This document shows, piece by piece, positions 13,400-62,442 of a DNA stretch of 64,000 bases. Position 1 is the stretch's first letter. Each line of letters begins with the position of its first letter. The stretch is from an uncultured Gammaproteobacteria bacterium (GTDB lineage: Bacteria > Patescibacteriota > Patescibacteriia > Magasanikbacterales > GWA2-37-8), in contig CAYHBZ010000001.1 in NCBI GenBank assembly GCA_964355175.1, positions 368,523 through 432,522 on the forward strand. The letters are read 5' to 3'. Under the pieces are notes generated by a model. The model was not told the origin of the DNA. It saw only the letters and a program-made list of their open reading frames with translations, and did not search any database. The position numbers and the translations under genes are program-made.

Positions 13400-13425
13400 A
13401 GTTTTTTTAAATTAAATTAGTGATT

Positions 13426-13456
13426 AAAAAAAGCACCTTCTACAGAAGTGCTTTTA
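13426..13456 (-). terminator. hairpin + U-run in the nusA leader (terminator of the upstream LDT gene and/or nusA attenuator)
   Basis: gcaccttctacagaagtgc hairpin (13433-13451) followed on the minus strand by a T7 run. It lies between the predicted promoter (13470-13498) and the nusA start (13399). Confidence 0.5.
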
Positions 13457-13469
13457 TATTCTGTAGTCA

Positions 13470-13498
13470 AGTATAGCACAAAAATACATTTTTGTCAA
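13470..13498 (-). promoter_or_regulatory. sigma70-like promoter upstream of nusA
   Basis: Minus strand reads TTGACA-17 nt-TATACT. Confidence 0.45.
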
Positions 13499-14192: not shown

Positions 14193-15056
14193 TTACCTTA
14201 TTATTATATCACCTTTTAGGTCGGTTCGCCAAATCTCGACTTGAGCGCGTTGTAGTTTGCGTAAAACCCTTTGTGTGGGATGACCATATCGATTTTTGGC
14301 TCCGGACGATATTATCGCGTAGCGGGCCGAAACCGCTTTGAGAAAACTTACTCCGGTAGAAGAGTCGCTACCATGGTGACCAACTTTGAGATAATCAGCC
14401 TGTAACGCCGGACACGGCAACAGATCTTTGTCGCAATATTTTTCCAAAATAGCCTCTTCAAGCGGCATTTCCATATCGCCGGTAAACAAAAATCTGCCTA
14501 AATTATTTTTTAATAAAAATACTATGGAATGATTATTGGCCGTATCGGCATCTTTTTTTAGGAACAAGCCGACACTATCGGGAGAAAAAAATTCCAGACT
14601 GCTACTACCAATAGTGATAATTTCATGCCCATTAATAAATTTCCAATTGGAATTTTCCGCCGCGCTATATTTGGTCCAGGCGCGCCAAAATGGATCATTG
14701 GATTTTTTAAAATCATCAAAAATAATATTTTTAACATCATAACGCGCGAGCACTGCCGGACAACCACCATAGTGATCGCCGTCGGGGTGCGTGACCAACA
14801 TATAATCGATAGAACGGTCAAAAAATGATAGGCGCTTGCCAAGTTTGCTCAAAACTTTTTTATCCGGCCCGCAATCTACAAGCATCTTTTGACCGTTGCC
14901 GAATTTAATAAGCGCCGAATCTCCTTGGCCAATATCGAAAAAAATTATTTCCACTTTTTTATCGGCCTCAATAGTCCAAAGCAAATAAAAAAGTAGCAAA
15001 AAAATTGCTACCAAAAAAAATATTATTCCAATTAAAAAATTTCTTTTCCCCTCCAT
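14193..15056 (-). CDS. ComEC-type metallo-beta-lactamase-fold domain protein (membrane-anchored)
   Basis: HxHxDH-type motif YMLVTHPDGDHYGG and an overall ComEC C-terminal MBL-like sequence. N-terminal TM helix. Encoded separately from the ComEC channel gene. Confidence 0.65.
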   Translation of the reverse strand: MEGKRNFLIGIIFFLVAIFLLLFYLLWTIEADKKVEIIFFDIGQGDSALIKFGNGQKMLVDCGPDKKVLSKLGKRLSFFDRSIDYMLVTHPDGDHYGGCPAVLARYDVKNIIFDDFKKSNDPFWRAWTKYSAAENSNWKFINGHEIITIGSSSLEFFSPDSVGLFLKKDADTANNHSIVFLLKNNLGRFLFTGDMEMPLEEAILEKYCDKDLLPCPALQADYLKVGHHGSDSSTGVSFLKAVSARYAIISSGAKNRYGHPTQRVLRKLQRAQVEIWRTDLKGDIIIR

Positions 15057-15077
15057 ATGACTGTTCTAAGAACTAAA

Positions 15078-15177
15078 GCCTGGACAAATTACTTTTGAGC
15101 GGGTTATGAGGCCCACGGCCGATTCCTAGATCCCGACTTAGTCGGGAGAGGAAAGCGAAAAAGTCATTTGTCCAGGC
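15078..15177. repeat. 100-bp palindromic element in the MBL-methyltransferase spacer
   Basis: 12-bp terminal inverted repeats GCCTGGACAAAT / ATTTGTCCAGGC enclose a perfect 7-bp-stem hairpin TCCCGAC-tta-GTCGGGA. It carries GATTCC/GTCAT motifs reminiscent of the GTCATTCC repeat family. Confidence 0.45.
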
Positions 15178-15190
15178 GTCTATTTCCAAG

Positions 15191-15796
15191 CTATTTTCTT
15201 GCAATAATGAGTTGATTAATCCAAATATCTTTTTCGTAAACTAAGACATTTTTTTCTACCTGGAAGGCTAAACTTTCTAGTTCTTCAACAATTTTTTCTG
15301 GACGATGATAAAAAGATTCAATTTTTATTTTTCCTTCTTGGGTCTGCACTTCCGGTGGTTCTTTTTGATTGATATTGGAAACCGCCAAAATTCCTCCGTC
15401 TTTTAATACCCTGCAAGCTTCATCAAAAAAAGTTTTTGGATCTCTCAGATGCACTATCAAAAATGCAGCGGTAACAATATCAAAAGTACTGTCAGCAAAC
15501 GGCAAATTTTCGGCATCACCAATAGTGGTTTCAATTTTTTTATCTTTATTTTTCAAAACTTTCAACATCTGCTCCGACACATCCAAAGCTGTCACTTGCG
15601 CTCCCGACTTGGACAATAGCACCGATAGCCGACCTGTCCCCGCTCCCACATCAAGCACTTTTTTACTTTTTAAATCGCCTAAAAGCGGCAAAAATTTATT
15701 TTGTTCAAAACTATTTAAATACTTTTCTTTTTTATCGTATGAAGCCGCGGCCAAATCATAGCCCGGAGCGGATTTTAAAATTTTTATTTTTGACAT
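15191..15796 (-). CDS. class I SAM-dependent methyltransferase (Methyltransf_11-like)
   Basis: Motif I VLDVGAGTGRLS, and a post-I acidic residue. 201 aa. Overlaps the 3' end of the ComEC gene by 41 nt. Confidence 0.75.
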   Translation of the reverse strand: MSKIKILKSAPGYDLAAASYDKKEKYLNSFEQNKFLPLLGDLKSKKVLDVGAGTGRLSVLLSKSGAQVTALDVSEQMLKVLKNKDKKIETTIGDAENLPFADSTFDIVTAAFLIVHLRDPKTFFDEACRVLKDGGILAVSNINQKEPPEVQTQEGKIKIESFYHRPEKIVEELESLAFQVEKNVLVYEKDIWINQLIIARK

Positions 15797-17279
15797 ATAT
15801 AACTAATAAAACATAGGTAACCACCAATGCCCAAAGCGGCAGGGCAAACTCCACACTCGCCCACGGCCAGGAGGCCAAATAATGCGCGGTTATTATAACA
15901 TACTTTAAACCAAAATAAGTAGGGAAAGCCATTAACAAGCCCAATGGAAAAAATATATAGCTGAGCAGAATGGATAAAAAAGAAAACAACATCAAAAAAG
16001 GCACGATCCACAAAATTAAGATATTGGCCAGCGGAGCTATCAGTGATAGCTGACCAAACTGAAATAAAATTAAAGGCAAAGTGGCAATAATGGCCGACAA
16101 AGTAGTGGATAATGATTCCAATATAATATACAAAAATTTATTATCGGTTTCTATTCCAAAGTTATTTAAAATTGGCGAGATATATATCAGGCCTAGGGTG
16201 GACAAAAATGACAGCTGAAAACCGGCATCCCAAATTAACACAAACGGATTCATAAGCATCATCACCGCGGCGGTAAATACCAAAACATTTCCCACTCGCG
16301 ATTGTCGGCCTAGCTGAGTGGCCAACAAAACAATAATACCCATAATCCCCGCTCTCACTACCGAAGCGGAAGCGCCGGTAAAAAATACAAACAAAATTAT
16401 TCCACCTATTACCACAAAAAATGCTTTGCGTCGATCTAGGCTCAGCCGGATCAAAATATTCATCAGCACGCAGGCAATGATACTAATATTATATCCAGAA
16501 ACCGCCACGATGTGAGTGAGACCAACTCGACTAAAATCCTCGGTCACTTCCGGCGTAAATCCTGACCGCGCGCCGTATAGTAATCCGGCGGCCAAAGAAC
16601 TTTGCGGTTCCGACCATAATTCATTGACCCGATACTGCAATCTCTGCTTTAGATCAAAAAAATTTATATATAATTTATGTAACACGGGCATATCAGTTTC
16701 CAATTTTTCTATCCGGACGCGCGTACCGCATAGCGACCACACCCCGTTGCGCGCCAAATATTTATCATAATTTAAAAAACCATCTTTCCCCTCAGGTGTT
16801 TTCAAATCACAGCCCACTCTCACCGCATCACCAAATTTAAAATCCTCATAAAGCGGTAAATTTATCAACACACCGCCGGAAACTTTTTTTGCTCCCAGCT
16901 GGGTGACATTTACAATCGCCTGCTTGCTGGATATTTTTTCATTTATCTCCTGCGATATAGTACCGGTGAAAATTTCATACTGACCGTTATAATAACTCAG
17001 CTCATTCATTGTGACGGACGGCACGGCCAGATAAAAACGCAACCCGCCCAAGATAAAAAACAACGCACACAACAAAACAAAACGAAATTTTAAATTCGCC
17101 CAATAAAAAAATAATAAAATAACCACCGACAAAAAACCGCAGTAAATAAAAAACTGCCAATCTTTATTGATAGTTTGAGACGAAAAAATTCCTACTCCCA
17201 AAATAAAACAAAAACAGAACGCCAAAAATGTTCTGCTTCTAGAATAATAAATTTTTTCTTCCCCTCCTAACATATACAC
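15756..17279 (-). CDS. comEC: ComEC/Rec2 DNA-uptake channel protein (DUF4131 + competence domain), lacking the MBL domain
   Basis: 507 aa polytopic membrane protein with ComEC competence-domain sequence (…GLTHIVAVSGYNISII…). The start codon overlaps the response-regulator stop by 1 nt. Confidence 0.75.
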   Translation of the reverse strand: MYMLGGEEKIYYSRSRTFLAFCFCFILGVGIFSSQTINKDWQFFIYCGFLSVVILLFFYWANLKFRFVLLCALFFILGGLRFYLAVPSVTMNELSYYNGQYEIFTGTISQEINEKISSKQAIVNVTQLGAKKVSGGVLINLPLYEDFKFGDAVRVGCDLKTPEGKDGFLNYDKYLARNGVWSLCGTRVRIEKLETDMPVLHKLYINFFDLKQRLQYRVNELWSEPQSSLAAGLLYGARSGFTPEVTEDFSRVGLTHIVAVSGYNISIIACVLMNILIRLSLDRRKAFFVVIGGIILFVFFTGASASVVRAGIMGIIVLLATQLGRQSRVGNVLVFTAAVMMLMNPFVLIWDAGFQLSFLSTLGLIYISPILNNFGIETDNKFLYIILESLSTTLSAIIATLPLILFQFGQLSLIAPLANILILWIVPFLMLFSFLSILLSYIFFPLGLLMAFPTYFGLKYVIITAHYLASWPWASVEFALPLWALVVTYVLLVIYVKNKNFKIRSGL

Positions 17280-17656
17280 TAACTGCCGAGTTTGGCTTTA
17301 ATTTTGGCTACTATGGAAGAAAGATTATGATTGGTTTTGATGAGATAGTCATAATTACCGTGCTTAATCAATTTCAGAATTTCATGATCATCATTTATAT
17401 TACTAAGCACGATTACCGGCACGTTCTTGCCCCACTTATTTTTGTGCAGGGCGTTGAGCACCTCCGTACCGTTCATTTTTGGCATAAATATATCAAGCAG
17501 AATCAAATCTGGCTTCTCTTCTAAGGCCATTTTCAATCCGTCTTCCCCGTTGGCGGCTTGCAATACAGTGAATTTTTCACGGGTCAATTTATCGGCCAAA
17601 ATTTTACGCGTCGCGATTTCATTTTCAATAATTAAAATTTTTTTATTGTCTATCAT
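17279..17656 (-). CDS. response regulator, stand-alone receiver (CheY-like) domain
   Basis: 125 aa, …ILIIENEIATRKIL…DLILLDIFMPKMNGTEVL…. 4-nt overlap with the kinase gene. Confidence 0.8.
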   Translation of the reverse strand: MIDNKKILIIENEIATRKILADKLTREKFTVLQAANGEDGLKMALEEKPDLILLDIFMPKMNGTEVLNALHKNKWGKNVPVIVLSNINDDHEILKLIKHGNYDYLIKTNHNLSSIVAKIKAKLGS

Positions 17657-18885
17657 ATAATGATAGTTTTCTTTTTAATCACCGGTTTAATTGGAAAAGA
17701 TACAAAAAAAGTAGTGCCTTTGTCCACCTCGGACTCAAACCAGATTTTGCCTTGTAATTTTTCTACTATTGATTTCACCATATACAAACCCAGACCAGTA
17801 CCGGTAATTTCTTTGGCCATCACATTTTCCGCGCGATATAGTTTGGTAAAAATTTTCTCTTGAGAGGCTTTGGGAATACCGTAACCATTGTCGGCCACAC
17901 TCAGAGTAAATTCCTTTTTACCGCTTGGAATTACTTTGATATCAACTTTTCCTCCCGACGGGGTATATTTTATAGCGTTGGTTATAAGATTTTGCAATAA
18001 CATCTTGAGCATTTTGATATCGGTTTCTACACCTTTTAGTCCATCACTGACTGTAGAATTAATTATCATCTTTTTATCTTCAATCGTCGGCAAGTTGGCT
18101 TTTAATTCATCTTCTATGAAACTTTTTAAATCCACCGGTACCAACTGTACCGCCAAAGTACCCAAATCCAAACGAGAAACATTCAACAAATCATTGACCA
18201 TTTCTACCATGCGCTGATTACCCTGATAAACTTCTTTAAGATAATTTTTCTGATCTTCATTAATAGGACCAGCATCACCGGACATCAACATTTCCACATA
18301 CCAATTGATGGTGGACAGCGGCGTACGCAATTGATGAGAAGCTAAAAATACAAATTCGCTTTTTATTCTGTCAATTTCTTTTTCCTGAGTAATATCACGA
18401 AAAACTTCTATCGCGCCGATGATTTCGTCTTTCAAAAAGATTGGCATCGCGCTGATATATACCGCGAAATCCATTTTGTCTTTTTTTACAAAATGATAAT
18501 TGGTGCTAATAATTTTTTTACGCTTGGTGAGACACAGATGCAGAGGATGCTTTTCTATTGGCACATGTTTACCGGTTTCATCTGACAACAGTGAAATATC
18601 GCCCAATCTTTGACCAATCATACTATCGTCCCAGGCAATCATTTCCTGCGCGGCTTTATTTACAAAAATAATCGCTCCGTTTTTATCCGTAGCCACTACC
18701 CCATCGCCAATACTACCAAGCATAGCCTCTTCACGCGCTTTGTCTATTTTAGCGATTAATTCTTTTTTCTTTAATTCTTTAAGCAACGCGCGTGAGCGTC
18801 GGCCAAAATAAAAATATAAGGCTAAAATCAAAACTATAAATAGCCATTCTATAAACATCATTGAATTTACAGTGGTGAAAAACAT
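17653..18885 (-). CDS. sensor histidine kinase (TM - PAS - HisKA - HATPase_c)
   Basis: H-box FLASHQLRTPLSTI. PAS-like GDGVVATDKNGAIIFVNKAA. ATPase G-boxes GTGLGLYMV. Confidence 0.85.
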   Translation of the reverse strand: MFFTTVNSMMFIEWLFIVLILALYFYFGRRSRALLKELKKKELIAKIDKAREEAMLGSIGDGVVATDKNGAIIFVNKAAQEMIAWDDSMIGQRLGDISLLSDETGKHVPIEKHPLHLCLTKRKKIISTNYHFVKKDKMDFAVYISAMPIFLKDEIIGAIEVFRDITQEKEIDRIKSEFVFLASHQLRTPLSTINWYVEMLMSGDAGPINEDQKNYLKEVYQGNQRMVEMVNDLLNVSRLDLGTLAVQLVPVDLKSFIEDELKANLPTIEDKKMIINSTVSDGLKGVETDIKMLKMLLQNLITNAIKYTPSGGKVDIKVIPSGKKEFTLSVADNGYGIPKASQEKIFTKLYRAENVMAKEITGTGLGLYMVKSIVEKLQGKIWFESEVDKGTTFFVSFPIKPVIKKKTIII

Positions 18886-18891
18886 AATTTT

Positions 18892-20520
18892 TTATCTGGT
18901 AATACTAATTGCTTCAGCGTTTTCCGCACTACAAGCCTGAACATTTATTCTACCACCGGCTGTTTTTTGAATGGCGTAATATGTCTGGCTGTTACTGCCA
19001 GTTTTAGGATCAAACGGTAGAGAGGTGATATAAGTCGGAGCTAGCGCGGACGAAAGATCCAAACAAGCGGCGGCAGTGGTGGATGATGGAGAAGATCCGC
19101 CGCTTGAACCACTAGTACTCCCACTAATTATAGCACTTTTTAGCTCAGGAGTTAAGGCGGAATCGACGGTGTCTAGAAATGCTTTGTATTGGAAATATCG
19201 ATTATTAGAAATATTGGCGAGGGATACTGATGGAGTCGAATTGGAAGTATTGGAAGCTTCAGAATAATAGGTGTTGGCAGTGCCATCAGGACCAAAAAAT
19301 GTACCGTCAGAACAGTTGGCTTGAGCGCAGGATCTTGCTTGATATTTCAAACTAAGGGCGCCGCGTTTATACATATCACTAACTTCTGTGACAGAAAGAG
19401 CGCGAGAAAATACTGCTACCTCATCAATTAAACCTTGAAAAAAACGATTACTACTGTAGGTCGATCCAATTCTAGGATTGTGTAAAATTATATTATAATT
19501 ATTCGAAGTGGTTTCAGATTCTTTGACACCGTTTACATACACTGTAGCTTTACTGGTAGCATTATTTAAAGTATAAACTAAATGATACCACTGATTGAGA
19601 CTAACAGCCGTAGTAGAAAATACAAACGCACCGTTATTTAAAGCACACTGGACCAAATTGCTAGTATTATTTAATTGACAATGTAAATCACCGCCTGCCC
19701 AACCTTGGCTACCAAACAAACCGCGCATTTCACCTGATACTCCAGTGGATTTAAACCACATGGCAACAGAAAAATTAGTAAAATTACTATTATTTAAAGG
19801 AATTCCAATAAAATCTCCCGACCCGTCAAAACTTCCGCCGGTTCCAAACTTTGCACTGGCCGCCATAGCAGGACAACCATTGCCGCTACAGGTACCATTA
19901 TTATTGTTTCCGGAATTGTCGACAAAACTAGTCGCACCGCTGCTTTCGTCCAAATGCATCAATAAGACATTGCCATTCATACTCACATTCCCCGTTGGAT
20001 AGCCGGTCTCTGCAGCACCGCTGTTTGACAAGGCTTTACCTGTCGGCCTATTTGGCACCCAGGCAAGCGTGGACCAAGCGGCGCTGGCAGCAGCATCTTT
20101 AATGTCTGAGGTATAGGAACCACCAGTCTGTCCAACCGAAAGATTTAATAAAGAATTATTTGTGTTGTAAGTAGTATTACTATATGTACCGGCGAAAGTT
20201 GATTGACTATTATCAGTCATGGATACAGGACCGCCACTGCTGGTAGCACTACTGCCACCACAAACAACATCACATCCGGAATTGGCAGTGCCCAGCATTC
20301 TGAGATTGGTGTCGATGTTATTCGGAAACAAACCATCATTATCGAGAGAGTACTGATAAATAGCATTCAATATAGTACTGAGATCGCTTTTTCTGGCGGC
20401 GTTTCTCACTTGTGCCAATTGTTTTCCAGGATTAATGGCAACAATAACTATGCCGGCTAATATCGCAATAGCGGCTACGACTAACAGAATTTCTAATAAT
20501 GTAAAAGCTTTTTTATTCAC
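18892..20520 (-). CDS. type IV pilin-like protein with central LamG_3 (concanavalin-A-like) domain, paralog 1
   Basis: Class III signal peptide and conserved pilin helix (KKAFTLLEILLVVAAIAILAGIVIVAINP). Central region with the LamG_3 signature (…NQWYHLVYT…YVNGV…GLIDEVAVFSRALSVTEV). C-terminal module shared with the other paralogs. Confidence 0.75.
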   Translation of the reverse strand: MNKKAFTLLEILLVVAAIAILAGIVIVAINPGKQLAQVRNAARKSDLSTILNAIYQYSLDNDGLFPNNIDTNLRMLGTANSGCDVVCGGSSATSSGGPVSMTDNSQSTFAGTYSNTTYNTNNSLLNLSVGQTGGSYTSDIKDAAASAAWSTLAWVPNRPTGKALSNSGAAETGYPTGNVSMNGNVLLMHLDESSGATSFVDNSGNNNNGTCSGNGCPAMAASAKFGTGGSFDGSGDFIGIPLNNSNFTNFSVAMWFKSTGVSGEMRGLFGSQGWAGGDLHCQLNNTSNLVQCALNNGAFVFSTTAVSLNQWYHLVYTLNNATSKATVYVNGVKESETTSNNYNIILHNPRIGSTYSSNRFFQGLIDEVAVFSRALSVTEVSDMYKRGALSLKYQARSCAQANCSDGTFFGPDGTANTYYSEASNTSNSTPSVSLANISNNRYFQYKAFLDTVDSALTPELKSAIISGSTSGSSGGSSPSSTTAAACLDLSSALAPTYITSLPFDPKTGSNSQTYYAIQKTAGGRINVQACSAENAEAISITR

Positions 20521-20528
20521 ACAAAAAA

Positions 20529-22172: not shown

Positions 22173-22175
22173 CTT

Positions 22176-23810: not shown

Positions 23811-23821
23811 TATTTTTTTTA

Positions 23822-24268
23822 TTATCTAGTAACACTGATAGATGCGCTATTTTCGGCAGATGGAGCGCTGACAGTAATGCGTCCATTGGCAGTCTGTAAA
23901 ATTTTATAACCGGTACCATTGGTACTGGCGGCGGTTGGATCGGTTGGAATAGCCGTCAAATAAACTTCGTTTAAAGTAAGTGCGGACAAATCCACTAGGC
24001 CAGCACAACTACCACCGGTCTTACAAACTTCTACCGCGTTCTGAGTAATACCAGATGGCAATGCGCCTTTATTATCAATTGAATATTGATAAACAGCGTT
24101 TAAAATCGTGTTCACATTTACTCTTCTTTGCGCGTTACGAGTATCGGCCAATTGTTTGCCTGGATTGATAGCAATAATTACGATACCGGCCAAAATGGCG
24201 ATAGCGGCCACCACCAATAAAATTTCTAAAAGGGTAAAACCCTTTTTATTTAAATTTTCCATATTCAT
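23822..24268 (-). CDS. short type IV pilin (148 aa) lacking the LamG insert
   Basis: KKGFTLLEILLVVAAIAILAGIVIIAINP prepilin N-terminus. Its C-terminal beta-domain (…TANGRITVSAPSAENSASISVTR) is homologous to the C-terminal module of the large paralogs. Confidence 0.75.
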   Translation of the reverse strand: MNMENLNKKGFTLLEILLVVAAIAILAGIVIIAINPGKQLADTRNAQRRVNVNTILNAVYQYSIDNKGALPSGITQNAVEVCKTGGSCAGLVDLSALTLNEVYLTAIPTDPTAASTNGTGYKILQTANGRITVSAPSAENSASISVTR

Positions 24269-24310
24269 ATTATGAATAATTAATAAATTAATTTTTTAAA
24301 TTAGATATAT

Positions 24311-25996
24311 TTATCTTGTCACACTTATAACTTCAGAATTTTCCGCGCTACAGGCCTGAACATTTATTCTGCCACCAGCGGTCTTTTGAATGGCATAATA
24401 TGTCTGGCTGTTACTACCAGTTTTGGGATCAAATGGTAATGAAGTGATATAAGTTGGAGTCAATGCCGAAGAAAGATTCAAACAAGCGGCAGCGGTGGTG
24501 GACGAAGAAGATCCTCCACTAGAACCACTGGTACTCCCGCTAATTATAACACTTTTTAACTCCGGAGTTAAGGCGGAATCGACGGTATCTAGAAATCCTT
24601 TATATTGGAAATATCGATTATTGGAAATATTAGCGAGAGACAGTGACGGAATAGTATTGGAGGTGTTGGAAGCTTCGGAATAATAGGTATTGGCAGTGCC
24701 GTCGGGGCCGGCGAATGTACCGTCGGAGCAGTTGGCTTGGACACAACTGCGGACTTGGTATTTTAGACTAAGGGCGCCGCGTTTGTAATGGTCGGCAACT
24801 TCGGTTGCAGAAAGGGCGCGGTTATAAAGAGCAAATTCATCCAATGTACCACTAAAAAAATAATTTGTTCCGGCTCCGCGGTCGCCAAAATAAATTGGCT
24901 GATTACCAAAATTATTGGTATTATTGGCATTCAGACCACTGTTTGTGCCGGTAGTTTTTGATCCATTTATATAGGTAGAGACTTCGTTGGTTGGCAAACT
25001 TTTATCAAACACTACCACCACATGATACCAAACATTGGTCTGTAAAATATTATCAGCCACCCAAACAGAATAATACACATTGCCTCGTACGCCGGCTCCA
25101 ATTTTACCGTTAGGATTGATCGATACAACGTAACCATCGGAAACATTATTATAATTTGTAGAAGCTTCAAAAATTTGTTCACCGACAGCTGGTGTCAAGG
25201 AAGCAGGTTTAAACCAAAAAGATACCGATATTTTGTTGGTAGCCGAGACATCTACCGGACCAGTCTTGGCATAGTCATCTACCCCATCAAACTTTACACC
25301 TGTGCCAAAAATTCCACTTGATTGATAAGTTAATCCATTAAAAGTAGCGGCATTATTACCACTGCCAGATAAATCTTGCCAAGCTCCGCTCGCTTCATCC
25401 AGGTGATACAAAAGTACATCCCCACTCATGTTAGCATTCCCACTTGGATAACCGGTTTCAGTGGCACCAGAGTTTGGCAATGGTTTATTGGTAGGACGAT
25501 TTGGTATCCAAGCCAATGTAGACCAAGTGGCACTGGCGGTGGCGTCTTTAATGTCTGAAGTATACGTACCAGGGGTTTGGTTGGCAGAGAGATTTAAGAG
25601 ATTATTATTTGTATTGTAAGTGGTGTTGCTGTAAGTACCGGCAAAAGTGGATTGACTATTATCGGTAATGGATACAGGACCACCACTGCTGGTGGCACTA
25701 CTGGCACCACAAGAAACATTACAACCGGAATTTGATGTACCGAGCATCCTTAGGTTAGTATCGATGGTGTTTGGGACCAACCCAGTATTATCTATCGCGT
25801 ATTGATAAATTGCGTTTAAAATTGCGCTCACATCACTACGACGAGCAGCATTTCTTGTTTGGGCTAATTGTTTGGCCGGATTTATTGCAACCACAACTAT
25901 ACCGGCTAAAATGGCAATAGCGGCCACTACCAGAAGAATTTCTAGCAAAGTGAAACCAGTTTTAATTTTATAACATTTATGCTCCATAATTACCAA
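24311..25996 (-). CDS. type IV pilin-like protein with LamG_3 domain, paralog 4 (561 aa)
   Basis: TGFTLLEILLVVAAIAILAGIVVVAINP N-terminus. LamG-like middle (…FDGVDDY…WYHVVVVFD…YINGS…). Conserved C-terminus. Confidence 0.75.
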   Translation of the reverse strand: MVIMEHKCYKIKTGFTLLEILLVVAAIAILAGIVVVAINPAKQLAQTRNAARRSDVSAILNAIYQYAIDNTGLVPNTIDTNLRMLGTSNSGCNVSCGASSATSSGGPVSITDNSQSTFAGTYSNTTYNTNNNLLNLSANQTPGTYTSDIKDATASATWSTLAWIPNRPTNKPLPNSGATETGYPSGNANMSGDVLLYHLDEASGAWQDLSGSGNNAATFNGLTYQSSGIFGTGVKFDGVDDYAKTGPVDVSATNKISVSFWFKPASLTPAVGEQIFEASTNYNNVSDGYVVSINPNGKIGAGVRGNVYYSVWVADNILQTNVWYHVVVVFDKSLPTNEVSTYINGSKTTGTNSGLNANNTNNFGNQPIYFGDRGAGTNYFFSGTLDEFALYNRALSATEVADHYKRGALSLKYQVRSCVQANCSDGTFAGPDGTANTYYSEASNTSNTIPSLSLANISNNRYFQYKGFLDTVDSALTPELKSVIISGSTSGSSGGSSSSTTAAACLNLSSALTPTYITSLPFDPKTGSNSQTYYAIQKTAGGRINVQACSAENSEVISVTR

Positions 25997-26025
25997 ATAT
26001 TATAACACACTTTTGGACCATAAAA

Positions 26026-26442
26026 TTAAAAATTTGAAACTTCCTGCCAAGAATCCACTACTATGACCGGCGCAATCTGACTCACAGATACTTTTACCTT
26101 ACGAACTACCGATCCAATAGTAGCGCTAGATTGGATCACGCGACTTTGTTCTGAATTTATTATAATTTCATAACTACAGGTATCGCCGTCAATCTGTACA
26201 CTCCCTGCTCCGTTAATTATGGAGCAAAGTTGAACATGGTTGAGCGCCGATTCTGCGCAAGCATTAGCCAAAGTTTTGGCACGCGCGGACTGCTCAAGCA
26301 AAAAACTATTTTGATAGGAATATAGACCGGACAAAATCAAATACAAGGCCACGGCCACACCAAAAGCACCGACGATTAATACGCCGATAAGTACCGCGAA
26401 TCCGGAATTATTTTTTGTACTAGCGGATATTGGCAGTCGCAT
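26026..26442 (-). CDS. pilus-associated small membrane protein (minor-pilin-like / PilX-like)
   Basis: N-terminal hydrophobic segment after NNSGFAVLIGVLIVGA. Lacks the E5. Sits in the minor pilin block. Confidence 0.4.
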   Translation of the reverse strand: MRLPISASTKNNSGFAVLIGVLIVGAFGVAVALYLILSGLYSYQNSFLLEQSARAKTLANACAESALNHVQLCSIINGAGSVQIDGDTCSYEIIINSEQSRVIQSSATIGSVVRKVKVSVSQIAPVIVVDSWQEVSNF

Positions 26443-27004
26443 AAAAAGTTTGGGTATAGCTATATTGATTTAGCCCAGATGAATTTTTATAATTTAGATC
26501 AAATTGAATTTTAATGGAATCGTGAGAGGCAGCTCCTAAATTTTTTACCTGCCAGTTGGAAATTTGAATCTTGGAGGGATTTAAAAAATAATCTTTACTA
26601 TTTTTATTCAAAAATAAAGTGGTGCTGACTACGCTGAGCTGTTCAGACTGGCCATTGATATCCTGAAACTGCAATACGACGGCGGTATTGCCTACGGCCG
26701 GAGCCGTAATAATTTTCGCGTTATTAATCTCTTGGGTAATAATCTGAATAATCTGGGCACCTTGTTGCTCTACCATACTCATACTCTGATTTTTTACGCG
26801 TGATTGAATAAGCAGAGCCACCAAAGCCACAATGGACAACAAAATAACACTGGCTACAAAAACATACAGTAGTAACTCCAGCAATGTAAATCCTTGATTG
26901 TCATTTTGAATGCTCTGCATAAATATTTTATGGACAAAACTCCGTGCTGGTACCGGTACTGGTAGCAGTACGCCAATCAGTAAATAAAGTGGAAAAAGAT
27001 ACAT
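26420..27004 (-). CDS. prepilin-type N-terminal cleavage/methylation domain protein (minor pilin)
   Basis: QGFTLLELLLYVFVASVILLSIVAL class III signal peptide. Confidence 0.6.
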   Translation of the reverse strand: MYLFPLYLLIGVLLPVPVPARSFVHKIFMQSIQNDNQGFTLLELLLYVFVASVILLSIVALVALLIQSRVKNQSMSMVEQQGAQIIQIITQEINNAKIITAPAVGNTAVVLQFQDINGQSEQLSVVSTTLFLNKNSKDYFLNPSKIQISNWQVKNLGAASHDSIKIQFDLNYKNSSGLNQYSYTQTFYATANIR

Positions 27005-27386
27005 TAATAGTATTGGAACCGGTTTGCTTCCATTCTACTTGAGATGTTACTTTTTTTATTTGAGAATTCACATCGGCAATACTAATAGTGCGCTTAAAAA
27101 TATCCGTGACATCCGGCTGAGCCGCCAGTGTCCACTGACCACTACTTGCCAGACCAAAATTCCCTGGTGTTAAATTCGCAAAATTATGATCACGAATACT
27201 GCGCGCCGCTTCGAGCCCTTCCTGAGCCAGCGAAATAGCATGGTTTCTTTGTCCGGCACGGATGGTACTTTGCTGACCATAAGTCAAAATACCCAAAAAA
27301 ATCAAAGACAACAACGCTAGAAGTCCGCTGGCCAGGACTATTTCCACCAGAGAAAAACCTTGATAATTTTTTATATTTTTTATCAT
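26928..27386 (-). CDS. prepilin-type minor pilin
   Basis: QGFSLVEIVLASGLLALLSL class III signal peptide. Confidence 0.6.
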   Translation of the reverse strand: MIKNIKNYQGFSLVEIVLASGLLALLSLIFLGILTYGQQSTIRAGQRNHAISLAQEGLEAARSIRDHNFANLTPGNFGLASSGQWTLAAQPDVTDIFKRTISIADVNSQIKKVTSQVEWKQTGSNTINVSFSTLFTDWRTATSTGTSTEFCP

Positions 27387-27865
27387 AGGCCAATAATACC
27401 AAGTTCGCTAACAGAAACATTCTTTTTACGACCATCCTGGTGAGTTATAATTATAGTACCAGACGAGGTAGTCCATCCGAAAAATTTACTAAACACGACT
27501 TCATTTAAACCGGATAATTTTATAGTGGCGGTCATTTTATAATTTTCATCAAAATTTTGATCGCGTCCGGCAAAGTTATTTCCTTTAAAAAGAGTAGCCG
27601 TACTACTCACCATCTCCACTCCCCAATCAGAATCCCCATCCACGGCCTGGGCGCGAATTTGTCCGCGATGCAAAACATCCGATACGGTAGTAGCCGCAAT
27701 TGACACCTCATTCTCTGCCTGCAAAGACAGATACATAGGAGCGGCAATGCCCGCCAATAGGCTTATCAAAGCCACTGATAACAATAATTCCAAAAGTGTA
27801 AAGCCATTTTTTTGTGAAAATGGCTTTGGAGCATATATGATTTTTTTTACCAAAAAAAATTTCAT
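27383..27865 (-). CDS. prepilin-type minor pilin (GspH/FimT-like)
   Basis: NGFTLLELLLSVALISLLAGIAAPMY class III signal peptide. Confidence 0.6.
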   Translation of the reverse strand: MKFFLVKKIIYAPKPFSQKNGFTLLELLLSVALISLLAGIAAPMYLSLQAENEVSIAATTVSDVLHRGQIRAQAVDGDSDWGVEMVSSTATLFKGNNFAGRDQNFDENYKMTATIKLSGLNEVVFSKFFGWTTSSGTIIITHQDGRKKNVSVSELGIIGL

Positions 27866-27866
27866 A

Positions 27867-29435
27867 TTACGGACTAAGAGTAGAGCCGGTTTTTACATAT
27901 TGAGCACTGACCCACCCAAATTGATCCGGGCCTAAAATTATTTGATACCAACCGTCTTGTCGCTGTAAAAATTTAAATTGTTCGCCTACCAGTGCTTTGC
28001 GTATAAGCTCAGATTTAGAGGAAGAAGCCATGCGAATATTTACATATCCCAAAGAAGTGGAAGCCACCTCAAGCATATCCGGACCAAGCAAACTAACTTC
28101 GGGTGGAGGTAACATCGGAGAAGGGACGGTGGAACTGGTCGATACTGATGTACTGGAAACTGTGCTAGTAGGAGCTCCTTTAGGTCCAATAATTATTACT
28201 GAGCTGGTAGACATGGTGCTAGTGCTAATAATGGCACCAGCAACTACCGGAGACACAGCGCTAACCGGAGCAGACTGGGAAGAAGAACCGGACTGGCTAG
28301 GACCCTCATCATTTTTATTACTCAAACCACCCACCAAGCTATATATTGGCAAAATTACTGCCAAGGCTACTGCCACCACACCAAGCCAAACTATCACGAG
28401 CAACAAAGGCTCCAAAATGACGCTGAGATTTTTGGTTGTTAATTCGGTTTTAGCTTCAAAAGTTTCGCTAATATTTATAAATATTTTGGAAAGCGCACCC
28501 GATCTCTCGCCCGCCCCGATTAAACTCTGAATCGGAGTAGGGATATATTTTTTTATTTTTTTGTTGGAAGCAAAACTTTGTTCAAAAGACTTTCCCTCTT
28601 CTATCTGATCGTGCAAATAATTATAAATTTTCCCGTAAGACCTCAAGGTGCTGGAATCTTTTAGGGATGACAGAGCTTGCAACACGGGCAAACCAGAATT
28701 TAGCAATGTGCCCATGATATATCCAAATCTGGCCAACTCCGCTTCGCGGATTAAATTTTTGATACCGGGAATTAAAAACAGTAGCCACTGACCGATGAAT
28801 TTGGTTTTGGAAAAAACAAATAAAAAATATAGTATTAAACACAAACCAACCAAAAAAGACGGTACAACTATTGCTCCATATTCAGACAAAAAGGCACCAA
28901 AGCTCATCAACAGCCTGGTGACCAAAGGTAATTTGAGATTCAGCTGACCAAAAACACTGGCCAGGCGCGGCAAAATAAACCAAGCAATACCAATACCCAC
29001 CACCATCGCTATGGCCATCACAAATACCGGATACATCATGGCGGCGCGAATTTTGGATTGAAATGATCGGCTCTTGGATTGTTGCGTCACCACGACAGCC
29101 AAACTCTCATGCAATCTACCACTGTCTTCACCGATCTTAACTAGTGCAATAATATGGGCCGGTAAAATTTCAGTTTTACCAAGCGCGATAGACAGGCTAA
29201 AACCAGCACTGATATCTTCTACCAAATTATCAATGATATTTAGTAACTTGGTAGATTTTACTTCGGTTTTTATCGCTTGCAAGGACTCAATAATATCCAT
29301 GCCGGAAGCCAAAAGCATGGCCAAATTTTCAATAAAATATTCTTTTTCTTCATTAAAACCAAAACTAAAAGCCAGAATTGATGGTTTTTTAGGTTTCTCA
29401 TCTTTTTGATTGTCTATTTTTTTATCCTCGCTCAT
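27867..29435 (-). CDS. pilC: type IV pilus platform protein PilC/GspF fused to a C-terminal S/T/P-rich linker and SH3b-like domain
   Basis: Two T2SSF repeats with three TM helices. After the last TM comes a ~90-aa Ser/Thr/Pro low-complexity tract, then GYVNIRMASSSKSELIRKALVGEQFKFLQRQDGWYQIILGPDQFGWVSAQYV, which matches the bacterial SH3 pattern. Confidence 0.85.
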   Translation of the reverse strand: MSEDKKIDNQKDEKPKKPSILAFSFGFNEEKEYFIENLAMLLASGMDIIESLQAIKTEVKSTKLLNIIDNLVEDISAGFSLSIALGKTEILPAHIIALVKIGEDSGRLHESLAVVVTQQSKSRSFQSKIRAAMMYPVFVMAIAMVVGIGIAWFILPRLASVFGQLNLKLPLVTRLLMSFGAFLSEYGAIVVPSFLVGLCLILYFLFVFSKTKFIGQWLLFLIPGIKNLIREAELARFGYIMGTLLNSGLPVLQALSSLKDSSTLRSYGKIYNYLHDQIEEGKSFEQSFASNKKIKKYIPTPIQSLIGAGERSGALSKIFINISETFEAKTELTTKNLSVILEPLLLVIVWLGVVAVALAVILPIYSLVGGLSNKNDEGPSQSGSSSQSAPVSAVSPVVAGAIISTSTMSTSSVIIIGPKGAPTSTVSSTSVSTSSTVPSPMLPPPEVSLLGPDMLEVASTSLGYVNIRMASSSKSELIRKALVGEQFKFLQRQDGWYQIILGPDQFGWVSAQYVKTGSTLSP

Positions 29436-29445
29436 GGGTAAAAAA

Positions 29446-31098
29446 TTAAAATTTTGGCGCCTCCGCTACACGCAATAATTCTTCCAGAGTAGTAACACCA
29501 CTTTTTACTTTATCAATACCATCTTCAAATAAAGTGACTGAACCTTGCGCGCGGGCCACTTTCCAAATCTGGGCGGTGGAAGGATTTTTCAAAATAAGTT
29601 CCTCTAGCTCGGGAGTGACTTCAATAAATTCATAAATAGCAGTACGCCCCTTAAAACCGGTATGACCACAGCTGTCACATCCTTTTCCTTGATAGAGCAC
29701 GATATGTTTTCCGGTAAAATATTTAGAAGCATCTTCGGAAATATTTTTCTTGATTTCTTCCTTGGATGAGTTCACGCTATAGCGACATTTATCACAAATC
29801 TTGCGCACCAAACGCTGAGCAATAAGTACCTCAAGAGTAGAGGCCAATAAAAATGGCTCAATACCCATATCCAACAAACGCGGCACCGCCGTAGCGGCAT
29901 CATTGGCGTGAAAGGTAGACAATAATAAATGTCCGGTCAAAGCCGCGTTCACCGCAGTCTCGGCCGTTTCCTGATCACGAATTTCACCTACCAAAATAAT
30001 ATCCGGATCCTGACGCACAATCGAGCGCAAACCTTTGGCAAAAGTAAGATTTGTCTGGGCATTTACCTGGATCTGATTGATGCCCGGCATTTTATATTCT
30101 ACCGGATCTTCAATGGTGGTAATATTTACATCCGGACTATTTAATAATTTTAGCAAAGCGTAGAGCGAAGTAGTTTTACCGGAACCGGTCGGACCGGTCA
30201 CCAGAATCATACCAAACGGTTTGTTGGAAGCGGTGAGCAATAATTTTTGATCATGTTCAGACAAACCCAAATCAGCAAAAGAAAAACTGCGTACATATTG
30301 AGACAACAAACGAATTACCACCTTTTCACCATTTAAGGTAGGCAAAATGGAAATACGCATATCAAGCGAATTATCCCCTTTTACCTGACGAATAGCGCCG
30401 TCTTGCGCGGAAAAATGCTCATCAATAGGCAACATAGCCTGCACTTTAATACGATTCAAAATATTTCCATAGTATTCTTTTGGAATACGACCAGCTTCTT
30501 GCATTACACCATCAATACGAAAACGGACAATTACTTCTTTGTCCTGAGGCTCAATATGAATATCGGACGCGCGATAAGCCGAAGCATCGTCTACAATCTG
30601 CTCAATAATCTCCGGCGCGATGCGTTTTTGTTGTTTGATAATATCGCCAAAACGAGTGGCTAGAGTTTTGAGATAATGAATAAAGGTCGCTTCAACATCT
30701 TCGGCAAAAGCAAAGGCCAAAGATATTTTTTTACCTTTAAAAATTGTTTTTAATTTTTTGGTTAATTCAGGATTGGTGGGATTATCGGTCGCGATAATTA
30801 AGTCATCGCCATTTTGTTGAAATACTACGGCTGTAAATTCTTTGGCCGTGTCTTCCGGTAATAACTTCACCTGCTCAGCCGAAGGCTGATTGGTAGTCAG
30901 ATTGGCGTAGCTTATTTTATCGGATTCAGCAATGGCTTGACCCAACAAATCTTTATTGATAATTTCCTGCGACAATAAATAATCCAAAAATTTACCTTCC
31001 TCCCCTTTGGTGGCGGCCTCCGCTTTTTTGACATCCTCATCGGTTATATAATTACCATCCAGCAAAACTTGTTTTATTTTTTTGTCTTCAATTTTCAT
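29446..31098 (-). CDS. pilB: type IV pilus assembly ATPase PilB/GspE
   Basis: Walker A GPTGSGKTT. Asp/His boxes. Tetracysteine motif CDKC…CDSCGHTG. 550 aa. Confidence 0.9.
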   Translation of the reverse strand: MKIEDKKIKQVLLDGNYITDEDVKKAEAATKGEEGKFLDYLLSQEIINKDLLGQAIAESDKISYANLTTNQPSAEQVKLLPEDTAKEFTAVVFQQNGDDLIIATDNPTNPELTKKLKTIFKGKKISLAFAFAEDVEATFIHYLKTLATRFGDIIKQQKRIAPEIIEQIVDDASAYRASDIHIEPQDKEVIVRFRIDGVMQEAGRIPKEYYGNILNRIKVQAMLPIDEHFSAQDGAIRQVKGDNSLDMRISILPTLNGEKVVIRLLSQYVRSFSFADLGLSEHDQKLLLTASNKPFGMILVTGPTGSGKTTSLYALLKLLNSPDVNITTIEDPVEYKMPGINQIQVNAQTNLTFAKGLRSIVRQDPDIILVGEIRDQETAETAVNAALTGHLLLSTFHANDAATAVPRLLDMGIEPFLLASTLEVLIAQRLVRKICDKCRYSVNSSKEEIKKNISEDASKYFTGKHIVLYQGKGCDSCGHTGFKGRTAIYEFIEVTPELEELILKNPSTAQIWKVARAQGSVTLFEDGIDKVKSGVTTLEELLRVAEAPKF

Positions 31099-31104
31099 AC
31101 TTAC

Positions 31105-31488
31105 TTAATCGGCTATCAAAGTAGCCACGACATAATCCACTATTTTATTTATAGATGTGTCGGATTTTACAAAATACCATTTGGCTCCAAGCAACTTCGC
31201 TTTCTGAGCATCGTCGTCTTGGCCCAAATTGGACGCGATAATTACCGGTGTATTATCTTTTTTTTCTTTTAAAGATTTCAAAACTTCAAAGCCATCCATC
31301 TTTGGCATCATCAAATCAAGTAAAATCAGATCAAATTTTTCTTTTTTAATCGCTTCCCACGCGGCCAGACCATCGTTTACTACTTTGGTTTCAAATCCGC
31401 TGTGATTTAATTTGAGCTCCAGCGCTCTGGCCATTGGTTTTTCGTCTTCGGCAATTAAAATTTTCTTTAATTTCTTTTCAGCTACCAT
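31105..31488 (-). CDS. response regulator, stand-alone receiver domain (first gene of the pilus cluster)
   Basis: 127 aa, …KILIAEDEKPMARAL…DLILLDLMMPKMDGFEVL…. Confidence 0.8.
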   Translation of the reverse strand: MVAEKKLKKILIAEDEKPMARALELKLNHSGFETKVVNDGLAAWEAIKKEKFDLILLDLMMPKMDGFEVLKSLKEKKDNTPVIIASNLGQDDDAQKAKLLGAKWYFVKSDTSINKIVDYVVATLIAD

Positions 31489-31510
31489 AATAGTTATTTT
31501 GATTGCTTAT

Positions 31511-31539
31511 ATTATAGCATATTTTGGATTTTTTAACAA
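31511..31539 (-). promoter_or_regulatory. sigma70-like promoter for the pilus/competence cluster
   Basis: Minus strand reads TTGTTA-17 nt-TATAAT, about 20 nt upstream of the receiver gene start. Confidence 0.45.
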
Positions 31540-31547
31540 AATGGTCA

Positions 31548-31580
31548 AAATAAAATCCCCCAAATTGGGGGATTTTTTTA
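31548..31580 (-). terminator. rho-independent terminator of leuS
   Basis: Stem atccccc/gggggat (31555-31573) starts right after the leuS stop. It is followed on the minus strand by TTTTATTTT, and a T7 run follows on the plus strand too. Confidence 0.6.
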
Positions 31581-61069: not shown

Positions 61070-61076
61070 TTCCGCA

Positions 61077-62420: not shown

Positions 62421-62442
62421 ACAGAAGAAGTCTGACAGAATA

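What the first reader, a model, noticed from the sequence alone, without database searches (positions are those of the whole stretch)
14193..31539. 17-kb unidirectional type IV pilus - two-component - ComEC cluster (candidate DNA-uptake machine)
All on one strand with tiny or overlapping junctions: receiver - PilB - PilC - four minor pilins - five pilins - histidine kinase - receiver - ComEC channel - methyltransferase - ComEC-type MBL domain. The kinase/receiver overlap is 4 nt and the receiver/ComEC overlap is 1 nt, which implies translational coupling of the two-component system to the DNA channel.
A predicted promoter (TTGTTA-17-TATAAT) sits in front of the first receiver. Pilus, regulator and DNA translocase look like a single transcriptional unit. 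That arrangement would suit an obligate DNA/nucleotide scavenger.
Basis: partly seen in the sequence, partly recalled or inferred. Interest (0 to 1): 0.6.

Follow-up and report, generated by a model that had tools for sequence, protein, structure and literature searches.

The report
Pilus cluster beside a split ComEC
In this tiny-genome (Candidate Phyla Radiation) bacterium, a type IV pilus gene cluster with its own sensor kinase sits directly in front of a DNA-import channel (ComEC) encoded in two pieces, but related genomes show that these are two separate modules that became neighbours only in this lineage.

Summary
All 17 genes lie on the minus strand in the stated order, and the stated overlaps and promoter match are present.

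The organism is a Candidatus Magasanikbacteria bacterium (Patescibacteria/CPR).

Comparison with 160 related loci shows two separately conserved modules.

- **Pilus module:** receiver, PilB, PilC, four minor pilins, pilin(s), PAS histidine kinase, receiver. It recurs as a unit in many Patescibacteria, without ComEC after it.
- **Backbone:** leuS, comEC N-part, SAM methyltransferase, comEC MBL part, ykuD, nusA, yidC. In most relatives leuS sits next to comEC.

Pilus genes lie between leuS and comEC only in relatives whose ComEC is at least 62% identical. The tiny gene junctions are normal for this genome.

Three further points are worth noting:
- ComEC is split. A separately encoded, membrane-anchored ComEC-type nuclease gene lies downstream in 67 of 75 informative Patescibacteria loci.
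- A highly conserved methyltransferase gene sits at the split point. It is fused to the channel in some relatives.
- Four paralogous roughly 545-aa pilins carry a hypervariable lectin-like LamG insert.

Type IV pili and ComEC are already well known in CPR bacteria. Interest is moderate.

The parts
31511..31572 (-). leuS terminator hairpin with T-run (31572-31557), followed by the promoter-like TTGTTA-17-(TG)TATAAT (31539-31511)
31105..31488 (-). RR1, a receiver-only (CheY-like) response regulator. It is the 5' member of the pilus module.
   Evidence: Pfam Response_reg 2.4e-25. CheY active-site residues are present. The same position upstream of PilB is seen in about 18 related loci.
29446..31098 (-). 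PilB/GspE-type assembly ATPase with an MshEN N-domain and two CxxC motifs
   Evidence: T2SSE 1e-125. TIGR02538 scores 504 bits, below its cutoff. Sequence.
27867..29435 (-). PilC platform protein (three predicted TM segments) with a Ser/Thr/Pro-rich linker and a C-terminal SH3_3 domain (about 27891-28046)
26026..27865 (-). Four minor pilin genes (27383-27865, 26928-27386, about 26420-26923, 26026-26442). The last one lacks Glu5.
   Evidence: N_methyl hits. Sequences. A conserved set of four is seen in related loci.
25999..26007 (-). Extended -10 element TGTTATAAT in the spacer before the first large pilin gene; a candidate internal promoter
   Evidence: Read directly. No -35 match. Not tested.
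24311..25996 (-). Large pilin A with a LamG insert
   Evidence: Laminin_G_3 5e-26 plus N_methyl; alignment A2
23822..24268 (-). Small 148-aa pilin, the probable major pilin. It shares the N- and C-terminal parts of the large pilins but has no insert.
   Evidence: It is the pilin present in most related modules.
18892..23810 (-). Large pilins B, C and D (22176-23810, 20529-22172, 18892-20520) with LamG inserts
   Evidence: Pfam. AF2 model pLDDT 89.3. Lectin-like fold matches. Core DNA identity is 24-47% against 46-96% in the flanks.
17653..18885 (-). Histidine kinase: one N-terminal TM segment, a cytoplasmic PAS domain, HisKA and HATPase_c
   Evidence: It follows the last pilin gene in about 17 related loci.
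17279..17656 (-). RR2, a receiver-only regulator with Asn at the CheY Asp13 position
15756..17279 (-). ComEC N-part: OB fold (DUF4131) plus the competence channel domain, with 10 predicted TM segments. The deposited start is at 17273.
   Evidence: Residues 35-492 align to residues 49-486 of the solved ComEC 30bt_A.
15191..15796 (-). Class I SAM-dependent methyltransferase, predicted cytoplasmic. Its gene sits at the ComEC split point.
   Evidence: It is fused to the ComEC N-part in P0019, P0023, P0069, P0087 and L013.
15078..15177 (-). Structured 100-nt element in the methyltransferase-MBL spacer, closed by a perfect 12-bp inverted repeat
   Evidence: Fold energy -55.1 kcal/mol, z = -3.9. Inverted repeat. 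No Rfam match. Absent in L162.
14193..15056 (-). ComEC C-part: one N-terminal TM anchor plus a metallo-beta-lactamase nuclease domain
   Evidence: TIGR00361 positions 423-663, E=1.5e-33. Residues 10-286 align to 30bt_A 512-784, with the HxDxDH, HHGS and GHP motifs kept. TM segment.
13553..14170 (-). YkuD-type L,D-transpeptidase with a TSP3 repeat; the probable last gene of the unit (22-nt gap)
   Evidence: Synteny ComEC-(MT)-MBL-YkuD in many loci.

Best explanation
The region holds two independently conserved modules that lie end to end in one Magasanikbacteria lineage.

**Module 1: a monoderm-type type IV pilus system.** A PilB ATPase and a PilC platform assemble a filament from a small major pilin, primed by four minor pilins. 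Four alternative large pilins display a variable lectin-like LamG domain and most likely act as host or surface adhesins. A membrane-anchored PAS kinase and two CheY-like receivers with no output domain belong to this module. They most likely tune pilus activity after translation and do not control transcription.

**Module 2: a ComEC DNA channel made from two polypeptides.** The N-part carries the OB fold and the channel, and ends in the cytoplasm. A separate protein supplies the last transmembrane helix and the extracellular Mn-type nuclease domain that degrades the non-imported strand. A highly conserved SAM methyltransferase of unknown substrate is encoded exactly at the split.

**Relationship between the modules.** They may be co-transcribed here, and pili and ComEC may cooperate in DNA uptake as they do in other bacteria. 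The adjacency itself is a lineage-specific juxtaposition, not a conserved DNA-uptake operon.

**Shown:** gene identities, the clean split of ComEC, and the synteny patterns. **Inferred:** adhesin role, regulation, co-transcription, and cooperation in uptake.
For: - **Domains:**
- **Clean split of ComEC:** the two window proteins tile the solved ComEC 30bt_A at residues 49-486 and 512-784. Ten plus one predicted TM segments match the break between TM10 and TM11, where a cytoplasmic helix sits in the cryo-EM structure (PMC13539106).
- **The split is general:** among 80 species-level loci, none has ComEC and MBL in one reading frame. 24 are ComEC-MT-MBL, 32 are ComEC-MBL adjacent, and 11 have the MBL gene 0.8-5.7 kb downstream. 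This agrees with the report that the fused form is nearly absent in CPR (PMC6744442).
- **The backbone is conserved:** leuS-comEC-(MT)-MBL-ykuD-nusA-yidC, with LeuRS upstream in 34 loci and abutting in 16.
- **The pilus module is conserved with its kinase and receivers, without ComEC:** L082-L090, L097, L151, L153, L159, L161.
- **The large pilins are lectin-like:** the LamG core resembles carbohydrate- or receptor-binding domains. Modular lectin pilins are adhesins in S. sanguinis and in Saccharibacteria (PMC9934059, PMC11623550).
Against: - The kinase-receiver-ComEC junction is kept in relatives down to 55% ComEC identity (L162, the P0015 contig and L004).
- In L164, L004 and L016 a different kinase and receiver sit at the same place. 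Chance juxtaposition does not obviously predict this.
- Receiver-only genes also follow ComEC-MBL in six distant loci, and a PilM-receiver-pilin-PilD set follows it in three.
- No expression data exist.
- PilD, PilT, PilM/N/O and ComEA were not found in the 64-kb window. Completeness of either machine is therefore unverified.
Confidence: 0.7

Rival explanations
1. This is one dedicated DNA-uptake operon, in which the pilus captures DNA, the two-component system senses a cue, and its receiver is translationally coupled to the ComEC channel and controls it. The purpose would be nucleotide scavenging.
For: - The region is a contiguous same-strand block with no terminator-like site in any internal spacer.
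- The junctions are 4 nt and 1 nt.
- The receiver-ComEC junction recurs in L002, L003, L162, L163, the P0015 contig, L004, L016 and L164, with a 1-nt overlap in L164.
- Receiver genes lie beside ComEC/MBL in about 17 of 80 loci, in three different arrangements.
- ComEC-MBL-receiver-Ndk in distant Patescibacteria hints at a link to nucleotides.
Against: - Most relatives have leuS next to comEC with no kinase or pilus genes.
- The same kinase and receivers stay with the pilus module where ComEC is absent.
- Only about 8 of 80 ComEC loci have any pilus gene within 10 kb. By my rough, uncomputed estimate that is about what chance would give in pilus-rich CPR genomes.
- Tight junctions are the genome norm.
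- The receivers in L164 and L004 are not orthologues of RR2 (63 bits).
- In Saccharibacteria comEC is dispensable for growth, and T4P-2 mutants stay competent.
Confidence: 0.2
2. The filament system is a type II secretion-like pseudopilus. It would export proteins across the envelope and would not build an extended pilus.
For: The best NCBIfam matches of PilC and the pilins are GspF, GspG and GspH, and PilB also matches GspE strongly.
Against: - All of those matches are far below the family cutoffs.
- No secretin or GspC/L/M was found in the window.
- Roughly 545-aa pilins with surface lectin domains fit an exposed filament.
- CPR pili have been seen by microscopy (PMC11623550).
Confidence: 0.05

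Closest known systems
Type IV pilus loci of Patescibacteria/CPR (Meheust 2019, PMC6744442; Saccharibacteria T4P-1 and T4P-2, PMC11623550, PMC10633639)
   Same: PilB, PilC, several minor pilins and a small major pilin, no secretin, and lectin-like large pilins proposed to bind host glycans.
   Different: - There are four tandem paralogues, and the LamG domain is inserted inside the pilin fold, not appended at the end.
- PilC carries an SH3 domain.
- The module is bracketed by a receiver at one end and a kinase plus receiver at the other. The terms 'response regulator' and 'ComEC' both gave zero hits in a text search of the Saccharibacteria pilus paper.
ComEC/Rec2 of Bacillus subtilis and the solved ComEC structures (PMC8579336, PMC12455585, PMC13539106; PDB 30bt, 9vc6)
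   Same: OB fold, competence channel and MBL nuclease with its metal-binding motifs. The two window proteins cover the whole reference sequence.
   Different: The protein is encoded as two genes, broken between the channel and the last TM helix. A methyltransferase gene lies between them and is fused to the channel part in some relatives.
Modular pilins of Streptococcus sanguinis (PilC lectin module, PilB vWA module; PMC9934059, PMC8179133)
   Same: A class III signal peptide pilin carrying a concanavalin A-like lectin module for adhesion.
   Different: The module here is an internal insert flanked by conserved pilin N- and C-terminal parts. The family is confined to Patescibacteria (164 hits).
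Pil-Chp system of Pseudomonas (ChpA with the CheY-like PilG and PilH); comparison from my own knowledge
   Same: One kinase plus two single-domain CheY-like regulators encoded with pilus genes, suggesting post-translational control of pilus dynamics.
   Different: The kinase here is an ordinary PAS-HisKA kinase, not a CheA type. No MCP, CheW or PilT was found in the window.

Membership tests
Type IV pilus / type IV filament system | PilB/GspE-family assembly ATPase | tested here: met
   T2SSE E=1e-125. Walker box and CxxC pairs are visible in the sequence.
Type IV pilus / type IV filament system | Polytopic platform protein PilC/GspF | tested here: met
   T2SSF, two stretches, 3.8e-45. Three TM segments.
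Type IV pilus / type IV filament system | Pilins with a class III signal peptide (G/FxxxE plus a hydrophobic helix) | tested here: met
   N_methyl hits in 8 of 9 pilin genes. The GFTLLE motif is visible.
Type IV pilus / type IV filament system | Prepilin peptidase PilD | tested here: not met
   No Peptidase_A24 hit in the window ORFs scanned, and no match to the L027 PilD. The rest of the 954-kb genome could not be searched.
Type IV pilus / type IV filament system | PilM/N/O alignment proteins and the PilT retraction ATPase | tested here: not met
   Not in the window. The whole genome is not testable with these tools.
ComEC/Rec2 (TIGR00361 equivalog) | Competence (channel) domain | tested here: met
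   PF03772, 180 bits against a cutoff of 23.
ComEC/Rec2 (TIGR00361 equivalog) | N-terminal OB fold (DUF4131) | tested here: met
   PF13567, 52 bits against a cutoff of 31.6.
ComEC/Rec2 (TIGR00361 equivalog) | MBL nuclease domain on the same polypeptide, with a full-length score above the curated cutoff | tested here: not met
   The MBL domain is a separate gene. The halves score 80.6 and 115.9 bits against a cutoff of 190.
ComEC/Rec2 (TIGR00361 equivalog) | Metal-binding motifs of the nuclease domain | tested here: met
   THPDGDH, FTGD, GHHGS and YGHP align with solved ComEC C-terminal domains.
Classical two-component system | HisKA with a phospho-acceptor His, plus HATPase_c | tested here: met
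   HisKA 2.6e-15 and HATPase_c 4e-28. The SHQLRTPL box is visible.
Classical two-component system | Receiver with the full acidic pocket (CheY D12, D13, D57) and an output domain | tested here: not met
   Both receivers lack any output domain. RR2 has Asn at the D13 position; RR1 is canonical.
Pil-Chp chemosensory pilus control | CheA-type kinase with MCP and CheW | tested here: not met
   The kinase is a PAS-HisKA type. No MCP or CheW was found in the window.
Gram-positive Com pseudopilus (ComGA/GB/GC) | Equivalog-level matches to ComGA, ComGB and ComGC | tested here: not met
   ComGA 253.6 against 300, ComGB 127 against 240, ComGC 21 against 75.
Modular (lectin) pilin | Pilin moiety plus a ConA-like lectin module | tested here: met
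   Laminin_G_3 with E between 1e-18 and 1e-26. AF2 model plus Foldseek matches to lectin-like domains. Glycan binding itself was not tested.

The most novel reading that the evidence does not exclude
The split of ComEC may be functional. Under this reading the highly conserved SAM methyltransferase, encoded exactly at the cytoplasmic break and physically fused to the channel in some relatives, is a dedicated partner at the channel exit. It would act on incoming single-stranded DNA or on a channel-associated factor. The CheY-like receiver coupled to comEC would gate uptake. Together these would make a regulated, enzyme-coupled DNA import device particular to Magasanikbacteria-like CPR bacteria.
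Probability: 0.1. Interest if true: 0.75.

Novelty: new variant of a known kind. Interest (0 to 1): 0.4.

Why it matters
- **The "missing" ComEC nuclease.** Pili and ComEC are among the few recognisable host-interaction and DNA-uptake systems in CPR bacteria. About half of all ComEC proteins lack the nuclease domain, and how they dispose of the second DNA strand is an open question (PMC8579336). CPR ComEC has been described as the unfused form (PMC6744442). Here the nuclease is not missing. It is a separate membrane-anchored gene next to comEC in roughly nine of ten Patescibacteria loci examined. That gives a testable answer for this large group.
- **Limits of gene adjacency.** In compact, strand-biased genomes, tight same-strand gene strings are weak evidence of a functional operon.
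- **Host recognition.** The four variable lectin pilins are candidates for host recognition by an uncultured episymbiont.

Tried and rejected
- **Whole window:** Rfam at gathering thresholds gave no match, and no tRNA was found.
- **Structured spacer:** Rfam at E-value thresholds gave only a chance miRNA hit.
- **Methyltransferase substrate:** NCBIfam and PDB searches gave only generic class I matches, such as BioC/UbiE below cutoff and phosphoethanolamine N-methyltransferases. No substrate could be assigned. A DNA methyltransferase role was considered, but nothing supports it.
- **Recent gene conversion among the four large pilin genes:** rejected. The longest exact shared run is 57 nt, and the flanks are only 46-96% identical.
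- **Intrinsic terminator at 15012-14992:** set aside. It lies inside the codons for the MBL membrane anchor.
- **Source names:** the exact-sequence look-up gave no names for any of these proteins except 'response regulator' and 'OmpR family regulator' on members of the RR1 cluster.


Full report
**1. What is there**

Every gene from 13553 to 33992 is on the minus strand.
- a receiver-only regulator, RR1 (31105-31488);
- PilB (29446-31098);
- PilC with an unexpected C-terminal SH3_3 domain (27867-29435);
- four small pilin-like genes (26026-27865);
- five pilins (18892-25996);
- a kinase with one membrane segment, PAS, HisKA and HATPase_c (17653-18885);
- a second receiver-only regulator, RR2 (17279-17656);
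- a 505/507-aa ComEC with DUF4131 and Competence domains (15756-17279);
- a 201-aa class I SAM methyltransferase (15191-15796);
- a 287-aa MBL protein (14193-15056).

The ten of these products that I looked up exist as deposited gene calls on a 953,736-bp contig. Close homologues are named Candidatus Magasanikbacteria, a Patescibacteria/CPR lineage.

**2. Boundaries and signals**

- leuS ends at 31578. It is followed by a GC-rich hairpin plus T-run (31572-31557) and then by TTGTTA-17-TGCTATAAT (31539-31511). This is a credible operon start.
- Individual promoter matches are weak evidence, because 74 were found against 54.7 expected.
- All other terminator-like hits lie inside coding sequence and are not enriched: 24 found against 18.3 expected.
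- Internal spacers are short, with a median of 6 nt. So are the other same-strand junctions in the window, with a median of 12 nt. Tight packing is therefore a property of the genome, not of this cluster.
- The exception is the 134-nt spacer between the methyltransferase and MBL genes. It folds into a very stable structure (-55.1 kcal/mol, z = -3.9) closed by a perfect 12-bp inverted repeat. It has no Rfam match and is missing in a 69%-identity relative.
- A perfect extended -10 (TGTTATAAT, 26007-25999) lies 11 nt before the ATG of the first large pilin gene. Internal transcription starts therefore cannot be excluded.
- ykuD (13553-14170) follows the MBL gene after 22 nt. The next strong promoter-like site is at 13498, before nusA. 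The co-directional block probably extends to 13553.

**3. ComEC is split, cleanly**

- The MBL protein matches the C-terminal third of the ComEC/Rec2 model (TIGR00361 positions 423-663, E=1.5e-33).
- Its residues 10-286 match residues 512-784 of the solved ComEC 30bt_A. The THPDGDH, FTGD, GHHGS and YGHP motifs are retained.
- The N-part, residues 35-492, matches residues 49-486 of the same chain.
- Hydropathy gives 10 membrane segments in the N-part and one at the start of the MBL protein.
- The cryo-EM structure has a short cytoplasmic helix between TM10 and TM11, and a flexibly linked, extracytoplasmic nuclease domain positioned by the OB fold (PMC13539106; PMC8579336).
- I infer that the break falls in that cytoplasmic loop. 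The second protein would bring TM11 and place the nuclease outside the cell.

**4. The split is general in Patescibacteria**

I scanned one genome per species for ComEC relatives and obtained 80 loci. I then mapped the window's proteins onto them.
- No locus has ComEC and MBL in one reading frame.
- 24 loci have ComEC-methyltransferase-MBL.
- 32 loci have ComEC and MBL adjacent.
- 11 loci have the MBL gene 0.8-5.7 kb downstream on the same strand.
- 8 loci have no MBL gene in the locus.
- 5 loci are uninformative.

Meheust et al. noted that CPR ComEC is the unfused form (PMC6744442). The papers I read do not mention a separately encoded partner. Silale et al. call the fate of the second DNA strand in ComEC proteins without the C-terminal domain an open question.

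**5. The methyltransferase**

- It sits between the two ComEC genes in relatives whose ComEC is 40-82% identical.
- It is much better conserved than ComEC. In the L016 genome it is 66% identical, where ComEC is 42%.
- In P0019, P0023, P0069, P0087 and L013 it forms one reading frame with the ComEC N-part. The junction runs straight from the last membrane helix into the methyltransferase, and the methyltransferase's own Met is retained.
- The fusion fits a cytoplasmic location at the channel exit. It is weak evidence of a shared function, because the retained Met would also allow separate translation and because the whole neighbourhood is syntenically stable.
- Its nearest characterised relatives are generic small-molecule or lipid methyltransferases. 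The substrate is unknown.

**6. Is the pilus-kinase-ComEC string conserved?**

*Backbone.* The backbone leuS-comEC-(MT)-MBL-ykuD-nusA-yidC is widespread. LeuRS lies upstream of ComEC in 34 loci and abuts it in 16.

*Pilus genes between leuS and comEC.* These occur only in the window, L002 (82% ComEC identity), L003 (77%) and the P0015 contig (62%).

*Scan anchored on the large pilin.* This metagenome scan shows that receiver-PilB-PilC-four minor pilins-pilin(s)-kinase-receiver is itself a conserved unit in many Patescibacteria.
- About 18 loci have the receiver upstream of PilB.
- About 17 loci have a kinase after the last pilin.
- None of these is followed by ComEC.
- L086 and L090 carry the complete module, and nothing else from this window lies within 8 kb.
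- The kinase and both receivers therefore belong to the pilus module.

- A kinase and receiver directly precede comEC in L162 (69%), L004 (55%), L164 (59%) and L016 (42%).
- In L164, L004 and L016 the kinase has a different or longer sensor region (dCache plus PAS in L164).
- In L164 and L004 the receiver is not an RR2 orthologue, and L164 keeps a 1-nt overlap.
- ComEC-MBL is followed by a receiver and Ndk in six distant loci.
- It is followed by PilM-receiver-pilin-PilD-LigA in three loci.
- Receiver genes thus recur next to ComEC more often than I would expect. Pilus genes do so in about 8 of 80 loci, which by my rough estimate is not clearly above chance in pilus-rich CPR genomes.

**7. The pilins**

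- The 148-aa pilin shares its N-terminal helix and its C-terminal 25-55 residues with the four 542-561-aa pilins. The large pilins carry an insert of about 400 residues.
- Within the insert, a stretch of about 200 residues (the LamG core) is essentially unalignable between paralogues. DNA identity there is 24-47%, against 46-96% in the flanks.
- An AlphaFold model of pilin B is confident (pLDDT 89.3).
- Its core matches lectin-like jelly-roll domains: clostridial toxin HCN, the arabinan-binding domain 4 of AbnA (TM-score 0.74), and trans-sialidase lectin domains.
- The family is rare and confined to Patescibacteria, with 164 hits in 5.8 billion proteins.
- Copy number rises from one or two in relatives to four here.
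- Lectin-module pilins are adhesins in S. sanguinis (PMC9934059) and are implicated in host binding in Saccharibacteria (PMC11623550).
- The most likely primary role of this pilus is therefore host or surface attachment.

**8. Regulators**

- Both receivers keep Asp57, Ser/Thr87, Tyr106 and Lys109 (CheY numbering).
- RR2 has Asn at the Mg-binding Asp13 position. The same is true in L002, L003, L083 and L086, but not in more distant orthologues.
- Neither receiver has an output domain. Any control is therefore likely to act through protein contacts, as with PilG and PilH in Pseudomonas (comparison from my own knowledge). The kinase is not a CheA type.

**9. What is missing**

No PilD, PilT, PilM/N/O, ComEA or Ndk is encoded in the 64-kb window. 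The rest of the genome could not be searched.

**10. Verdict**

The reading of it as a conserved, integrated DNA-uptake operon is not supported. It is a pilus module with its own signalling genes, placed in front of a split comEC in one lineage.

Functional cooperation in DNA uptake remains plausible on general grounds. In the only CPR bacteria tested, comEC serves transformation and not growth, and one pilus type is dispensable for competence.

The most useful new points are the trans-encoded ComEC nuclease, the methyltransferase at the split, and the variable lectin pilins.

Noticed in passing
window 13415-13498 (minus strand): The nusA leader has a near-consensus promoter (TTGACA-17-TATACT with TG). 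It is followed by a bulged hairpin and a T-run about 20 nt before the nusA ATG. This could be an attenuator or the terminator of the upstream unit.
   Followed up: no
window 15078-15177: A 100-nt element with perfect 12-bp terminal inverted repeats lies in the methyltransferase-MBL spacer. It folds very stably (z = -3.9), has no Rfam match, occurs once in the window, and is absent in a 69%-identity relative.
   Followed up: partly
window 17279-17656; L002, L003, L083, L086: RR2 carries Asn in place of the Mg-binding Asp (CheY D13). The change is shared by close relatives whether or not ComEC follows. More distant orthologues keep Asp.
   Followed up: partly
window 27867-28320: PilC ends in a Ser/Thr/Pro-rich linker and an SH3_3 domain. 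With three TM segments this tail should lie outside the cell, so it may anchor to the cell wall. PilC proteins of about 490-545 aa occur in the closest relatives, against about 360-390 aa elsewhere.
   Followed up: partly
L035, L036, L039, L040, L056, L066 (and Ndk further downstream in 9 more loci): Distant Patescibacteria have comEC-MBL-receiver-ndk on one strand, which links the DNA channel to a nucleotide kinase gene.
   Followed up: partly
L027, L028, L049: ComEC-MBL-YkuD is followed by PilM, a receiver-only regulator, a GspG-like pilin and the prepilin peptidase PilD (then LigA in L027 and L049). This is a second, different way in which pilus genes neighbour comEC.
   Followed up: partly
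L164 1-10001: In a relative with a fused ComEC-methyltransferase, comEC is preceded by a giant protein of more than 4677 aa, a 1024-aa dCache/PAS kinase and a receiver that overlaps comEC by 1 nt.
   Followed up: no
window 19127-19155 and 24543-24571: The same promoter-like motif (TTAACT-17-TATAAT with TG) lies inside the conserved 3' part of large pilin genes D and A. These are the two copies followed by a different kind of gene (the kinase and the small pilin). Copies B and C have it degraded.
   Followed up: partly
window 60413-63994: A DsbA/thioredoxin-like protein is followed by RadA, with RecG on the opposite strand. CPR-enriched thiol oxidoreductases have been proposed to fold pilins (PMC6744442).
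   Followed up: no
window 1-37181: There is strong strand bias: almost every gene up to 37 kb is on the minus strand. GC skew is negative in all but two of the 2-kb windows (22-26 kb). A 1501-aa transglutaminase-like protein (2015-6520) is followed by three small ORFs with no family match.
   Followed up: no
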